From: Octopus vulgaris
Lineage: Eukaryota
Direction of reading: 5' to 3'
Length of the DNA: 64,000 nucleotides
NCBI GenBank assembly: GCA_951406725.2
Contig: OX597827.1
Span: 44,020,001-44,084,000 of the forward strand
In this document: in pieces, positions 2,495 to 45,945 of the stretch
Layout: each line of letters begins with the position of its first letter
Position numbering within the stretch: position 1 is the stretch's first letter
The notes under the pieces: model-generated
Databases searched by the model: none
What the model was told of the DNA's origin: nothing
The model's input: the letters and a program-made list of their open reading frames with translations, nothing else
Made by a program: the position numbers and the translations under genes

Positions 2495-3600
2495 AAGAAA
2501 ATGGAGGAGATCAATAGGTGGTTCATCAACTTTTAAACATTATATTACGTCAATTTATTTATTTATTTACTAAAAGGACAATTATAACAATATGCATATA
2601 TGTATAACATATGCTTTACATATATAATATATGAAATATAAAAATATCAGTAATTATTAAAATATATAACATATAGCAATAGAAATTGGGATAATATCTT
2701 ACAGCTGTTTCAACGAAGAGGCAAAAATACATCATTCTACATTTATCCTTCCAGTGGACTGAAGTAATTTGTAGATGAAATTGAGGTACTTGGGTATTTC
2801 TCTAGGCTTCGTCAGAGATTTTAGAAAGTACATAAGGTTAAGTTATAAATATAAATACACACACATATACATACTTTTACATATACATACATATGCATAA
2901 ATATACATAAATACATATACCTACACTTAAATGTACAAGCATATGTGCATGTATATGCATACAAATGAATCGATTATTATTATTATTATTAAATGCATTA
3001 TATTATTCATATATTAGATAAAATATAAACAGAGGTATGAGAAAGTTATAAGGGGAGTAATATTGTAATTTATAAAATCAATATATCTTAAAATTATTTT
3101 AGTTATGTAAGAATGAAACTGTATATACATGAGGAACACACATATATATACACACATACACAAACATACATACATACATACATACATACATACATACATA
3201 CATATATTATATATATATATATATATATATATATATATATATATATATATATATATATATATATATATATATATATATATATGTTTCCGTACAAACATAT
3301 TCATACGTACATACGTATTAGATGTGTTTCGAAGGGACGATTAATGCAGTAGCTCGTTTCATTATAATTATATAATATAATTATAACAATAGCTGTAAGA
3401 TATTATCCCAATTTCTGTTGCTATATGTTATATATTTTAATAATTACTGATATTTTTATATTTTATATATTATATATGTAAAGCATAATATGTTATACAT
3501 GTATGAATATTGTTAAAATCGTCCTTTTAGAAAATAAATAAATTGACATATAATGTCTAAAAGTTGATGAATACCACCTATTGAACCCCTCCATTTTCTT
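2495..3600. repeat. Inverted repeat pair, arms ~2495-2706 and ~3391-3600
   Basis: agctgtaagatattatcccaatttct...cctccattttctt at 3391 is the diverged reverse complement of 2495-2706. Confidence 0.9.
2696..2819 (-). ncRNA. Type-I minimal hammerhead ribozyme motif with long rod-like stem II
   Basis: Minus strand: ATCT-CTGACGA-AGC...GTT-GAAAC-AGCT-GTA-AGAT; stem I ATCT/AGAT, palindromic loop 3, GUA triplet. Confidence 0.75.
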
Positions 3601-3611
3601 TTTGCTCTATA

Positions 3612-4027
3612 TGTTAGTTAGTTAGTTAGTTAATTTTTGGCTCAAAAAGCAAAATGCAAGGCCATGTAGGGGGACATGGGGTTATGTACAGGGTGGTGTT
3701 CATGTAAAGAGTTCAGGCCACTTGTGGTCAAGGGAGACTTTGAAACGAGCGGTCGTCGGCATCTTCACCATCTCGTCCGGCAGCTTATTCCACGGATCCG
3801 CAACCCGGACGGAGAAAGCCCCTCTCCTTCGATTGAGATGAAATCGTCGCAGATAGAGCTTTTCGGAGTGACCCCGCAGCCGACGCTCTGGAGCAGGAGT
3901 GAAGAACAGCTCTTTCGAGAGGTTACACTTTCCGCTTATGATGTTGTGAGCAAGAATGAGATCACCACAGTGTCGTCGTTTTACTAGAGAATAAAGGTCG
4001 AGCGTCTTCAGCCTTTCTTCATAAGAC
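3612..4027 (-). mobile_element. 5'-truncated CR1-clade LINE (ORF2 C-terminus, short 3' UTR, (TAAC)n tail)
   Basis: ORF 3700-4029: [37 protein letters not shown], typical of CR1 ORF2 C-termini; tail repeat at 3612-3632. Confidence 0.85.
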
Positions 4028-4483
4028 AAATATGTGTGTGTGTGTGTGTGTGTGTGTGTGTGTGTGTGTGTGTGTGTGTGTGTATGTGTGTGCGTGCGCG
4101 TGTGTGTGTGTGTGTGCGTGTGTGTGTGTGTGTGTGTGTATGCATATATGGGTATAGGAAATACTTGGATATACTTGAAGAGATGATTGTATCCAAAAAG
4201 ACATTGGTTCTATACGTTATGTCTTCGGGAAATAAAATTTCCCTAAATCAAGAAAATGGAGTGTTAGTGGTTAATATTTATTTATTAATAAATTGGTTAT
4301 CATTTCTTCCTACAGCCGTTTACATTCGTACTCATTCAATAAATTTAAGCATTAAAATTCCATTTATAAATTATGTACACTACCACAAAATACCTGAAAT
4401 ATAAAAGGATAAGAGATAAAATAAATCACTCAGCTGCGACAACCGATGCAGACTTTGTGTCCGAGGAGACAAATATACGGTGG

Positions 4484-4615
4484 AGGTGCGTAGCCTAGTG
4501 GTTAGCAGGCTACATTCCCGACCGTAAGATCGTAGTTTCGATTCATTGACTGTGCGTTGTTTTCTTGAGTAAATCATTTCATTTCACGCTGCTTTAGTCT
4601 GCTCATCTGTAAACG
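4484..4615 (+). mobile_element. tRNA-headed SINE, family 4, decayed fragment
   Basis: A-box-like tagcctagtgg, B-box-like gtttcgattc, body similar to 39471 copy. Confidence 0.6.
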
Positions 4616-4697
4616 AATTCCAACAATAGATCGGAAATTAAACCGTATATATATATATATATATATATATATATATATATATATATACGGTTTAATA

Positions 4698-42490: not shown

Positions 42491-43149
42491 TGGTGTTAGG
42501 AGTAGCACATGGTGAAAGGCGGATGTTTACGATAACAAGAGCAAAGTGGGTTTTTAAAGGCAAAAGAGTGGAGACAAGGTTGGTAACGCAACAGATGTGT
42601 GTGTATGTGTGAGTGTGTGCGTGTGCGTGTGTGTATGTGTGTGTGTGAGGCGAGGTAAAAAAACAAAAAATATATGTATGTGTTAGTGTGTGCGTCTGTG
42701 TGTAGGCGTGTGAGGTAGGGCGAGACGGTGGTCAGCATAGCAGCAGCATAGCAGACAAAGGTCAGTAGTGAGAAAAGGGAGGAAGGAGGAAGGGAGGGGA
42801 AGGGGTGGGGGCGTATGTAGCGTGCCAGCGTGTGTTGAGTAGTAGTGTGTGTGTGTGTCCAGTGTCGTGGTAGTATTAGTGGCGAGTAGATTGAATGTGT
42901 GTAAGAGTGATGTATATGTTTAAGCAATGTGTGTATATGTGTGCGCGTGTGTGTAACGAAAAAAAAAAAAAAAAAAAAGGGGGGGGGGGGTTAGGAAAAG
43001 GACTCCAGCGGAGGGGAAGATGGAAGAGTGGTCCCGCGGAGACGGGCGTGGGAAAACCCAACGACAAGCGACATCCCAGGAACGGGCGGGAGGTCTCGTC
43101 GGGTCCAAGGGCGAGGTGCATGCGGGGCGCATGCGTGCGCGAACCGGCG

Positions 43150-44390
43150 CAAACGCGTGTGTGCGCGAGCCTGCGAGTGTGCGCGTACGTATGTGTGCGT
43201 GTGGATGTGTGAGTGTGTCTGTGTGTATGTCTGGGTGGCAGTGTGTCCGATGAATGTATGTGAGTATGTGTGTATATATGTGTGTGCATAGATGTATGTC
43301 CGTGTGTGTGTGTGTGTGTGTATGTGTGTATGAGTGTGTATGTATGTACGTGTGGGTGTGGGGAAGTGTGTGTATGTGCATGTGTGTGCGCGAACATACA
43401 GGTGTGTGAGTGAGTGCGTGTGTGTGTATGTATGTGTGAGTGTGTATGTATGTGTGTGTAGGATGCATGTATGTGTATGGGTGTATGTATGCGTGTGTGT
43501 ATGTATGTATGTGTACGTGCGTGTGTGTGTGTGTATGCGTGTAGGTGTGCGCGTGTGCATGCGTGCATGTATGTGCGTATGTGTGTGTGTGTGCATGTGT
43601 GTGGGTATATATGTGTGTGCGTATATGTGTGTGTATGTGCGTACATGTGTGTGTGTGTGCATGTGTGTGTGTAGGTGTGTAGGCGTGTGTGTATAGGTGT
43701 ATGTATGTAAGTATGTATGGGTGTGTCCGTGTATGTGTGTATGTATGTGTGTGTATGTAGCTGTGTGGGCGTGTGTATATGTGTGTGTATGTAGGTGTGT
43801 AGGCGTGTGTATATAGGTGTATGTATGTATGTCTGGGTGTGTCCGTGCATGTTTGTGTGTGTGTGTGTATGCATGTGTATGTAGGTGTGTGTGTACGTGT
43901 GTAATGTATGTGTGTATGCGTGTGTATGCGTGCGTGTGTGTATGTAGGTGCGTGTGTATGTGTGTGGGAGTGTAGGTGTGTGTGTGCGTGTGCGTGTTTA
44001 TGTTGGTGTGTGCGTATGTGAGTGTGAGTGTATGAGTGTTTGTCATGCATGTGTGTGCGCGTGCAGGTGAGTGTGTGTGTAAGTATGTGTGTGTGTATGT
44101 TTGTGTGAGTGTGTATGTGTGTATGTCTGTGTGTATGTATGTGCGTATAGGAGTATGTAGGTATGTGTGTGTGTATGTATATGGGTGTATGTATGTATGT
44201 GTGTGTGTGTGCATGTGTATAAGTATATGCGTGTGTGCGTATGTGTGTGTATGTGTATGTGTGTGTGTTTATGTATGTGTGTATGTATGTGTGTAGGCGT
44301 GAGTGTGTAGATGTATGTATGTATGGGTGTGTGTCAGTGTGTGTTTGTGTGTGTGTAGGTAGATGTGTGTGTCTGAGTGAGGGTATGGCT
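43150..44390. repeat. 1.2-kb degenerate (TG)n/RY tract
   Basis: Seen directly; source of the 300-500 aa His/Thr ORFs. Confidence 0.9.
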
Positions 44391-45466
44391 GTGTAATATA
44401 TATATATATGTGTGTGTGTGTGTATACGCATTTATAGAAACATATATATGTACATGTATATATATATATATATATGTGTGTGTGTGTGTGTGTGAATATA
44501 TTTATATATATGCATATATATATATATATATATGTATCTATAAATACGTATATATACACAAGTATATATATAATATATATGTATATGTATACATATATAT
44601 ATATATATATATATATATATATATATATACAACATGATGTATTTGTAGATAGATAGATAGATAGATAGATAGATAGATAGATAGATAGATAGATAGATAG
44701 ATAGATAGATGACCGATTAAATATAACAGAATGCGTATGGATAGACGTAATGCTACACGTGTACCCATGTTTCTGTGTGTGTGTGTGTGTGTGTGTGTGT
44801 GTGTGTGTGCGTGTGCGTGTGTGATTATTTATGTTTTGCGCTTACTCTGCCTGCTTGCACGTGTTTTTGCGTGAGTAGATATATATGGCGTCCAAACTAC
44901 ATAGCGACATGCCTGAGCGGAGTTCTTTATATAAGATATGTTTATCTGTACAAAATATGAGCGAGAATACGATGCAGGTGTAAATACACTAAATTCACGA
45001 ATGTATATATATATATATATATATATATATATATATATATATATATACACGTACATCCATACATACATACGTACATACGTACGTACAAGCACGTGCACGA
45101 ATTCTTCAGTGTACTTTAAAGGTAGTACACAATATTGAATGTAGAGTTATGAGGTGGACTGGAAGCTGGAAACTTCGAAAGCCATTAAAAATTCATGACC
45201 ACTTGTGAAGCTTTCAACCGCCAATAAAACCTGCGTGTCAGTGCAATGGGGTGTTTGTGTCTGTGTTTGTACGTGTGTGTGTGTGTGTGTGTAAAGAAGC
45301 ACCGTCTCGTCTTTGCTTCGGCCTTTGGTTTATGATCGAAAAATTGTAGATTCGATTCCTACCCTCGTTACTCCGGTTTATTCAGCTGTAATAAGTACCA
45401 TCTCAGAGCTGGTTCGACCATCCTTCCCTCTCTCCAGCTGTCACACCTAAGATCCTATATTTTGTT

Positions 45467-45555
45467 AACACTGATGAGGTTAGTGTATAATATTATATAT
45501 TTCAACATACTATTATAAAATCCTGGCAGTTAATTTGCCGAAACGTGTGTCTGTT
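45467..45555 (+). ncRNA. Type-I minimal hammerhead ribozyme, canonical core
   Basis: AACA-CTGATGA-GG..58 nt..CC-GAAAC-GTGT-GTC-TGTT; 4-bp stem I, GUC triplet. Confidence 0.8.
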
Positions 45556-45811
45556 TTATAAAGCATAAACTATCATATATATTTTCTGTAGTCTATTAAT
45601 ATATATACATGTATATATCTTTAAATTTGTTTACAGGAAACGTTTTGAATATGCAAATAAAGTTCCTGTTCCCTTATGACGGCCAGTCTAATTAATGGTG
45701 CTGACTGGTGAACCGGTGTTTGGGGTTGCATCGAGCTGTACTGGTATAATGTAGGAGGAATATAGTAATAACAACAATAATCCTCGGATGGAATTTATAA
45801 GCATTTAATGC

Positions 45812-45945
45812 ATCGCTACGCGCGTTTCCACAAATCTCATGTCTCTTAAAATCACAGTCCGTATTCCTAGGATCATTACAGTGTAGTGCGTAGAATCCGT
45901 GGGCATCCAGTAGTTCATCTTCGTGGATTCATTTCTACAGACGAT
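45812..45945 (-). ncRNA. Decayed hammerhead motif (altered core)
   Basis: Minus: ATCGT-CTG(TAGAA)ATGA-ATCCAC...GTG-GAAAC-GCGC-GTA-GCGAT; stem I and palindromic loop 3 retained. Confidence 0.45.

What the first reader, a model, noticed from the sequence alone, without database searches (positions are those of the whole stretch)
2696..45945. Hammerheads carrying long rod-like stem II insertions of unrelated sequence
HHRs at 2696, 33605, 35205/35451, 37967, 45467 and 45812 have 50-100+ nt between CUGANGA and GAAA, and several visibly fold as rods. At 2696: AAAUAC/GUAUUU, UCAUCUACA/UGUAGAAUGA, CUUCAG/CUGGAAG. At 35451: GUGCU/AGCAC, GAAGAUGA/UCAUUUUC. Loop 3 varies (AGCU, GCGC, GGCC, GUGU, GC) but is self-complementary. 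Inference: structure is kept without sequence, and family-specific palindromes could act as dimerisation codes so that only like elements activate each other.
Basis: partly seen in the sequence, partly recalled or inferred. Interest (0 to 1): 0.7.

Follow-up and report, generated by a model that had tools for sequence, protein, structure and literature searches.

The report
Long-armed hammerheads in Penelope-type repeats
These are worn copies of several jumping-gene repeat families whose hammerhead-shaped RNA motif, predicted to self-cut in pairs as in known Penelope-like elements, has one arm stretched to 60-105 bases that is predicted to fold back as a rod whatever its sequence; the self-complementary loop is real but is not specific to a family.

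Summary
Seven type I hammerhead-like motifs lie at the stated places (six unrelated families; inserts 60-105 nt). Four pass a strict descriptor that 0 of 60 shuffled windows pass. Two have damaged cores. By folding energy only 1 of 7 window copies beats shuffles. By a rod-length measure chosen afterwards, 4 of 6 families do, against 2 of 150 control stretches. Majority letters from public runs turn the decayed 45812 copy into one unbranched rod and strengthen the 33605 rod, so the rod belongs to the family, not the copy. Loop 3 stays palindromic but is not family-specific. Unrelated 33605 and 45812 share GCGC, the 33605 family is mostly GUAC, and GUGU is not self-complementary. In a dimer stem I also pairs across molecules and would already exclude other families. 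No SECIS match. A palindromic loop 3 with dimer cleavage is published for Penelope-like elements; I found no description of 60-105 nt arms (longest seen about 50 nt). This scan already reported the long arms on other DNA of this genome. Cleavage and a link to a Penelope ORF were not shown here. Verdict: new variant of a known kind.

The parts
2696..2819 (-). Type I hammerhead-like motif; core CUGACGA 2809-2815, 97-nt stem II insert 2712-2808, loop 3 AGCU, predicted cut after 2700, 4-bp stem I
   Evidence: rod depth reached by 14 of 500 shuffles, energy no better than shuffles
3388..3600 (+). Inverted second arm of the 2696 element, starting inside stem III (matches 2495-2709, 90%)
33605..33695 (-). 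Best-preserved motif; core CUGAUGA 33683-33689, 60-nt rod 33623-33682, loop GCGC (family majority GUAC), 6-bp stem I
35203..35323 (-). Motif of the GGCC family; core 35309-35315, 87-nt rod with a small duplication at its tip
35448..35563 (+). Inverted partner of the same family; core 35456-35462, 82-nt rod 35463-35544, loop GGCC; arms 35095-35334 and 35437-35658
37967..38052 (-). Damaged motif; core UUGAUGA 38042-38048, 62-nt insert, loop GC, 1 stem I pair; its upstream flank is repeated inverted (38085-38276 and 38921-39112, 98%)
45467..45555 (+). Motif with intact core 45471-45477, 62-nt insert that does not fold as a rod, loop GUGU (position 2 reads C in 39-55% of laid depth)
45811..45946 (-). 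Decayed motif; core CUGUAGA 45934-45940, 105-nt insert, loop GCGC, 6-bp stem I; folds as one rod with the family's majority letters
45620..45966 (-). Extent of the 45812 repeat family in this copy; many contigs leave it at 45620 into a TA run
   Evidence: tables 7 and 8 (64, 52, 44 and 27 contigs in the four runs)
18305..18387 (-).

Best explanation
The motifs are worn copies from six high-copy repeat families, likely end pieces of Penelope-like retroelements or of non-coding elements they mobilise, each carrying a type I hammerhead whose 2-bp stem III and palindromic loop are predicted to allow cutting only when two like copies pair, and whose stem II is stretched to a predicted bulged rod of 60-105 bases. 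How it likely works: in a transcript holding two copies (or between two transcripts) the AC-loop-GU strands pair as a 6-8 bp helix III and both stems I form across the partners, while each stem II stays within its own strand. The core needs only the base of stem II closed, so any long insert is tolerated if it folds back on itself; selection on the master elements therefore keeps a rod and lets its sequence drift. Partner choice would come mainly from stem I plus stem III together, not from loop 3 alone. Shown: the motifs, their repeat nature, palindromic loops, family-level rod folding by computation for two families. Inferred: cleavage, dimers, Penelope link, why the rod is kept. The copies in this window are mostly inert: none has a same-strand partner of its family here, and two have broken cores.
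For: Descriptor 4 in the window against 0 in 60 shuffles; Rfam Hammerhead_1 at 33605, E 8.5e-4. Repeat nature in four runs coded as four organisms: 112-209 contigs laid on 241 nt at 33605 and 946-1991 on 636 nt at 45440-46075. 33605 with its 3 majority letters: -15.5 to -19.6 kcal/mol, 0 of 300 shuffles, 3 of 1000 random same-type substitution sets; other strand only -8.5. 45812 with its 10 displayed majority letters: branched -13.9 to one rod of 32 nested pairs, -24.6; depth reached by 5 of 300 shuffles, energy by 13 of 1000 random substitution sets. One contig (run X9, record 31) changes a rod pair on both sides, C-G to U-A (read by hand from tables 3, 7, 8). Laid depth in the 33605 rod is 7-9 thousand against 48-56 and 31-33 thousand in the flanks in run X1, which fits a faster-changing rod; depth is not copy number. 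Rod depth at p<=0.033 in 4 of 6 families against 2 of 150 control stretches. Both central loop-3 letters change together in the 33605 family (60% and 69% in X1; GUAC read directly in a loose end), keeping the palindrome. Penelope-type traits: inverted arm pairs, ends in TA runs, an unpaired base at the foot of stem II in 35205, 35451 and the 45812 majority fold as described in PMC4209133. Stem I: self 4-6 contiguous pairs for four intact families against 0-3 across families.
Against: No cleavage data. No Penelope ORF is attached to any motif in the window; the one flank search found nothing and was run in a frame other than the one I judged most ORF-like. Six of 7 window inserts are not clearly more stable than shuffles. 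The depth measure was chosen after seeing that result. 45467 fails both measures, and the 45812 majority form is weak by energy (23 of 300 shuffles) and folds nearly as well on the other strand (-22.5), as do 35205 and 35451 (other strand equal or better), so a DNA-level fold-back origin is not excluded. One common 33605 allele (33664) breaks a pair and another (33672) weakens one (+2.7 kcal/mol each). Only one both-sides change was seen. Alleles from contigs are unlinked and 59 rows were hidden. Stem I duplex energies are not always best for self (35451 5' arm with 45812 3' arm -6.1 against self -2.7, though only 1 pair next to the core). Rfam gathering search finds none of the motifs.
Confidence: 0.68

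Rival explanations
1. The rod is more than a tolerated insert: it is a handle that the element's RT-endonuclease binds, to pick its own RNA or to help the ribozyme fold. The ribozyme part is as in the best explanation.
For: The Poseidon element PAc has a protein-assisted hammerhead and starts reverse transcription in a stem-loop (PMC11167929, passages). Rods recur in unrelated families, and a long arm has a cost that invites a function.
Against: No shared sequence or loop motif among the six families' rods; rod sequence looks more variable than its flanks; short-armed relatives sit in the same window and Hydra-clade arms are 10-24 nt.
Confidence: 0.2
2. The rods are by-products: fold-back copying or slippage made DNA palindromes inside loop 2, and nothing selects for them beyond the few closing pairs.
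For: 35205, 35451 and the 45812 majority form fold about as well on the other strand; these elements make inverted arms readily; 35205 has a fresh duplication at the rod tip; 45467 has no rod.
Against: The 33605 majority rod is strand-biased (-19.6 against -8.5); rods are bulged, not perfect palindromes; one both-sides pair change.
Confidence: 0.15
3. One reading: loop-3 palindromes are family-specific dimerisation codes so that only like elements activate each other.
For: Computed stem III duplexes favour like over unlike: GCGC -13.3, GGCC -14.1, AGCU -11.1, GUAC -9.8 kcal/mol for self against -0.3 to -5.7 for unlike 4-nt palindromes. The palindrome is kept through a double change in the 33605 family.
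Against: Unrelated 33605 and 45812 share GCGC; the 33605 family has two loops; GUGU pairs better with GCGC (-9.5) than with itself (-3.1); only 16 four-base palindromes exist; stem I must also match across partners; published dimers are mostly read as neighbours in tandem transcripts.
Confidence: 0.12
4. The inserts are SECIS elements or hold processing signals (poly(A) signal, splice donor) that happen to sit inside stem II.
For: Some Naiad elements carry SECIS (PMC8557442). One loose SECIS-like pattern in 35205 and one GGUAAG donor-like site in 33605.
Against: SECIS-like pattern in 1 of 7 inserts, and its AUGA is predicted to be Watson-Crick paired; no Rfam SECIS match at E up to 10 in four regions; AAUAAA or AUUAAA on the ribozyme strand in 0 of 7; donor-like site in 1 of 7.
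Confidence: 0.05

Closest known systems
Minimal type I hammerheads of metazoan Penelope-like elements (Cervera and De la Pena 2014, PMC4209133; read parts 1-2 of 4 and passages)
   Same: Type I topology, 1-2 bp helix III with a 2-4 nt palindromic loop, short helix I, unpaired base at the foot of helix II, many sequence families per genome, solitary or opposite-strand pairs 100-700 bp apart, dimer model
   Different: Their helix II is 6-8 bp; here the insert is 60-105 nt with 21-32 nested pairs where it folds. Their activity was tested (low); here it was not
Hammerheads of Hydra-clade and PLE-X elements (Craig et al. 2021, PMC8557442; passages, supplement part 2 of 59 and three supplement look-ups)
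   Same: Motif near the 3' end, (TA)n insertion preference, often an extra base on each side at the foot of stem II; a Hydra family is listed for Octopus bimaculoides; two spike-moss PLE-X1 motifs have about 50 nt between the cores
   Different: Hydra-clade stem II plus loop is 10-24 nt and stem III is 3-4 bp with a 1-3 nt loop; the motifs gaaacgcgcgt, gaaacggccgt and gaaacagctgt occur 0 times in the supplement text. Clade not established here
Animal non-LTR retrozymes (PMC7229834, passages; bioRxiv 10.64898/2026.07.22.740005, abstract and passages)
   Same: Short non-coding hammerhead repeats, some needing dimers through a palindromic tetraloop, proposed to derive from Penelope pLTRs
   Different: Described as tandem 170-400 nt units, many with canonical loop 1-loop 2 contacts; no tandem unit is present in this window and circular RNA was not tested
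PAc Poseidon element hammerhead (PMC11167929, passages)
   Same: Penelope-like element hammerhead in the terminal repeat
   Different: Shown to be protein-assisted and dispensable for insertion in vitro; overlaps the ORF start; no long arm described in the passages read

Membership tests
Type I hammerhead ribozyme | Core CUGANGA ... GAAA ... UH | tested here: met
   Intact in 5 of 7 (2696, 33605, 35205, 35451, 45467); one change each in 37967 and 45812
Type I hammerhead ribozyme | Three helices, helix I open | tested here: met
   Stem I 4-6 contiguous pairs in 4 of 7, 2 in the GGCC pair, 1 in 37967; stem II closes in most
Type I hammerhead ribozyme | Score at Rfam gathering cut-off | tested here: not met
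   0 hits at gathering; best is 33605 at 24 bits against 34; long inserts are penalised by the model (inference)
Type I hammerhead ribozyme | Self-cleavage at H17 | not testable with these tools
   Only contigs of DNA-type runs were laid
Minimal dimer-type PLE hammerhead | 1-2 bp helix III with palindromic loop | tested here: met
   6 of 7 loops are palindromes; GUGU is not; palindrome kept through a double change
Minimal dimer-type PLE hammerhead | Helix II of 6-8 bp with a small loop | tested here: not met
   Inserts of 60-105 nt; this is the variant trait
Penelope-like element terminal repeat | Attached to an RT plus GIY-YIG ORF | tested here: inconclusive
   No ORF joined to a motif in the window; no whole genome held
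Penelope-like element terminal repeat | Inverted or tandem truncated copies, microsatellite targets | tested here: met
   Three inverted arm pairs; 45812 family leaves into TA runs; no tandem copy seen
Hydra clade | RT phylogeny and domain layout | not testable with these tools
   No linked protein; earlier notes claim it, not checked here
Non-LTR retrozyme | Tandem non-coding units expressed as circular RNA | tested here: inconclusive
   No tandem unit in the window; expression not tested
SECIS element | AUGA, unpaired AA and a GA quartet on a two-helix hairpin downstream of a UGA-containing ORF | tested here: not met
   Pattern in 1 of 7, out of register; no Rfam SECIS in four regions; 37967 not searched at that sensitivity

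The most novel reading that the evidence does not exclude
A class of animal retroelement hammerheads, missed by standard descriptors, has turned stem II into a sequence-free rod that serves as the docking handle for the element's protein, while swappable loop-3 palindromes (GCGC versus GUAC within one family) act like retroviral dimer-initiation codes (analogy recalled, not from a call) that let sister subfamilies with the same stem I cut only their own RNA.
Probability: 0.15. Interest if true: 0.68.

Novelty: new variant of a known kind. Interest (0 to 1): 0.4.

Why it matters
Hammerheads with arms this long fall outside the usual search models, so counts of self-cleaving motifs in such genomes may be too low. 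What the ribozyme does for Penelope-like elements is still described as unclear (PMC8557442). The 33605 family offers a natural matched pair, GCGC and GUAC loops on the same scaffold, that makes partner choice in dimeric cleavage directly testable. The general picture (dimer-type hammerheads in these elements) is already known, and the scan has noted the long arms before.

Tried and rejected
No whole genome is held, so no family alignments or R-scape-type test. Rfam at gathering: nothing; whole-window E-value search was swamped by microsatellite matches to miRNA models (677 matches, 150 shown). A second possible core for 45812 at 46044-46050 (215-nt insert) was rejected: it folds no better than shuffles (153 of 200), family pieces stop near 45960-45966 and depth there is single-copy. 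The candidate at 39130-39243 from the first loose scan has a non-palindromic loop and was dropped. Pattern scans for long-armed motifs outside this genome: 24 viral matches, none with stem I of 4 or more pairs; 120 metagenome matches examined out of about 460 estimated, 1 with stem I and II of 3 pairs and z -0.3, none convincing; a cluster among them is CRISPR arrays. These collections hold little animal DNA, so this says nothing on other animals. No RNA holder listed for 33425-33960. Protein searches on decayed frames found nothing; one search used frame 38050-38214, not the frame I thought most ORF-like. Earlier-note look-ups by sequence and by nearness returned nothing. Lunse et al. 2017 (PMC5785218) is not held; I saw only its title in a reference list, and it may bear on both long arms and loop matching. 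Supplements of PMC4209133 and PMC7229834 were not read, and the preprint's are closed; they may show long-armed examples.
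Full report
Setting. The window is microsatellite-rich animal DNA (220 tandem-repeat rows; GC 27-45%). Earlier scan notes call the genome an octopus, which fits SINE sequences I recognise from memory; no call of mine names the organism. No assembly is held.

Observation. All seven motifs are present, with 60-105 nt between the first core box and GAAA. They form six families, because 35205 and 35451 are inverted copies of one (78% over 245 nt). Five cores are intact; 37967 reads UUGAUGA and 45812 CUGUAGA. A strict descriptor finds 4 in the window and none in 60 shuffled windows. 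Rfam finds nothing at gathering; on narrow stretches holding 6 of the 7 motifs, only 33605 scores to Hammerhead_1 (E 8.5e-4).

Are the inserts rods? I then measured the longest nested stack. Four of 6 families reach p of 0.03 or less (Fisher p 3e-4), against 2 of 150 control stretches of the window. That measure was chosen after the first result and should be weighed accordingly. The better test came from laying contigs of four public runs on two stretches. For 33605, 4 of the 5 G-U pairs of the predicted rod have a listed allele that makes them Watson-Crick, two alleles close unpaired positions, one breaks a pair, and one contig changes a pair on both sides (read by hand). Folding with the 3 majority letters gives -19.6 kcal/mol, reached by 0 of 300 shuffles and 3 of 1000 random same-type substitution sets, with only -8.5 on the other strand. 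For 45812, whose window copy is branched, the 10 displayed majority letters give one unbranched rod of 32 pairs (depth 5 of 300 shuffles; energy 23 of 300 shuffles and 13 of 1000 random sets), though the other strand folds nearly as well (59 allele rows were hidden). 45467 shows no rod, and its 5' half is covered only at about single-copy depth. So the rod is a property of at least two family masters, blurred in old copies. Selection on it is likely but rests on thin covariation.

Loop 3. Six of 7 loops are palindromes. GUGU is not; its second letter reads C in 39-55% of laid depth, so it is likely decayed. In the 33605 family both central letters differ from the window in 60% and 69% of depth in run X1, with similar shares in the other three runs, and a loose end reads GUAC directly. 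The palindrome is therefore conserved while its sequence is not, which supports pairing between two copies. It is not a family label: 33605 and 45812 are unrelated yet both show GCGC, and one family has two loops. Computed duplexes do favour like loops (-9.8 to -14.1 against -0.3 to -5.7 kcal/mol). But in a double hammerhead the cut strand comes from the partner, so stem I forms across molecules too (follows from the topology in PMC4209133, Fig. 1A legend). Contiguous stem I pairs are 4-6 for self in four families and 0-3 across families, so unlike families would be excluded whatever their loops. Loop 3 could still separate subfamilies that share stem I.

What they belong to. Inverted arm pairs at 2495-2709/3388-3600, 35095-35334/35437-35658 and 38085-38276/38921-39112, exit of the 45812 family into TA runs and an unpaired base at the foot of stem II match Penelope-like element ends as described (PMC4209133; PMC8557442). 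I could not tie any motif to an ORF, so autonomous element, clade and retrozyme status stay open. No copy here has a same-strand partner of its family.

Mechanism. Most likely (0.68): dimer-type type I hammerheads in element ends, with a long stem II kept as a rod because the core needs only its base closed. Cleavage, dimers and the reason for the rod are inferred. Rivals: protein handle (0.2), fold-back by-product (0.15), loop-3 family code (0.12), SECIS or processing signal (0.05; SECIS-like pattern 1 of 7, sense poly(A) hexamer 0 of 7, donor-like site 1 of 7). These are not all exclusive.

Novelty. Palindromic loop 3 and dimer cleavage are published (PMC4209133; PMC6765202 passages; PMC7229834 passages). 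Six paper searches turned up no description of 60-105 nt arms in the passages I read: 'long helix II' in PMC13725137 means 6-8 bp (passages), Hydra-clade arms are 10-24 nt and the longest in that table are about 50 nt in two spike-moss elements. Lunse et al. 2017 could not be read. This scan has already reported long-armed hammerheads several times on other pieces of this genome. New variant of a known kind; interest 0.4.

Noticed in passing
window 11952 (+), 12583 (-), 28017 (-), 38492 (+); 42321-42436 resembles the 38492 element: Short-stem-II minimal hammerhead-like motifs (12-14 nt inserts) share the window with the long-armed ones. The 11952 motif lies next to a frame that looks by eye like a non-LTR reverse transcriptase tail.
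   Followed up: no
window 56155-56200 (+): Decayed short-armed motif: core reads TTGACAA, hairpin AGGG/CCCT, loop GC, 6-bp stem I by eye.
   Followed up: partly
window 18305-18387 (-): Eighth long-arm candidate with core CUGAAGC and loop AUAU, which could be GUAC after CpG decay; fold not better than shuffles.
   Followed up: partly
window 22532 (+): GAAAC GGCC GUA half-motif with no recognisable 5' core upstream.
   Followed up: no
window 1400-2120 (+) and 37330-37700 (+): Broken frames that resemble, by recalled motifs, a Penelope-type GIY-YIG end and an RT piece; neither is joined to a long-armed motif, and Pfam and a protein search on the second did not confirm them.
   Followed up: partly
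window 3388-3400 (+): The inverted arm of the 2696 element begins inside stem III, about 9 nt before the predicted cut site, so it does not start at the cleavage point.
   Followed up: no
window 33665-33671 (-): A strong splice-donor-like GGUAAG inside the 33605 rod; an intron starting here would remove half of the ribozyme. Seen in 1 of 7 inserts.
   Followed up: no
window 45555-45620: The 45467 (+) and 45812 (-) elements meet tail to tail at one short TA run.
   Followed up: no
window 33681-33682: Loose ends suggest the 33605 family has two extra bases at the foot of stem II that this copy lacks.
   Followed up: no
L034, L040, L042, L048, L050, L052, L067, L078, L081, L083, L097, L101: CRISPR-like arrays in metagenome contigs whose repeat ends in CTGAAGA-GCACT-GAAAC, a chance look-alike of the two hammerhead boxes.
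   Followed up: no
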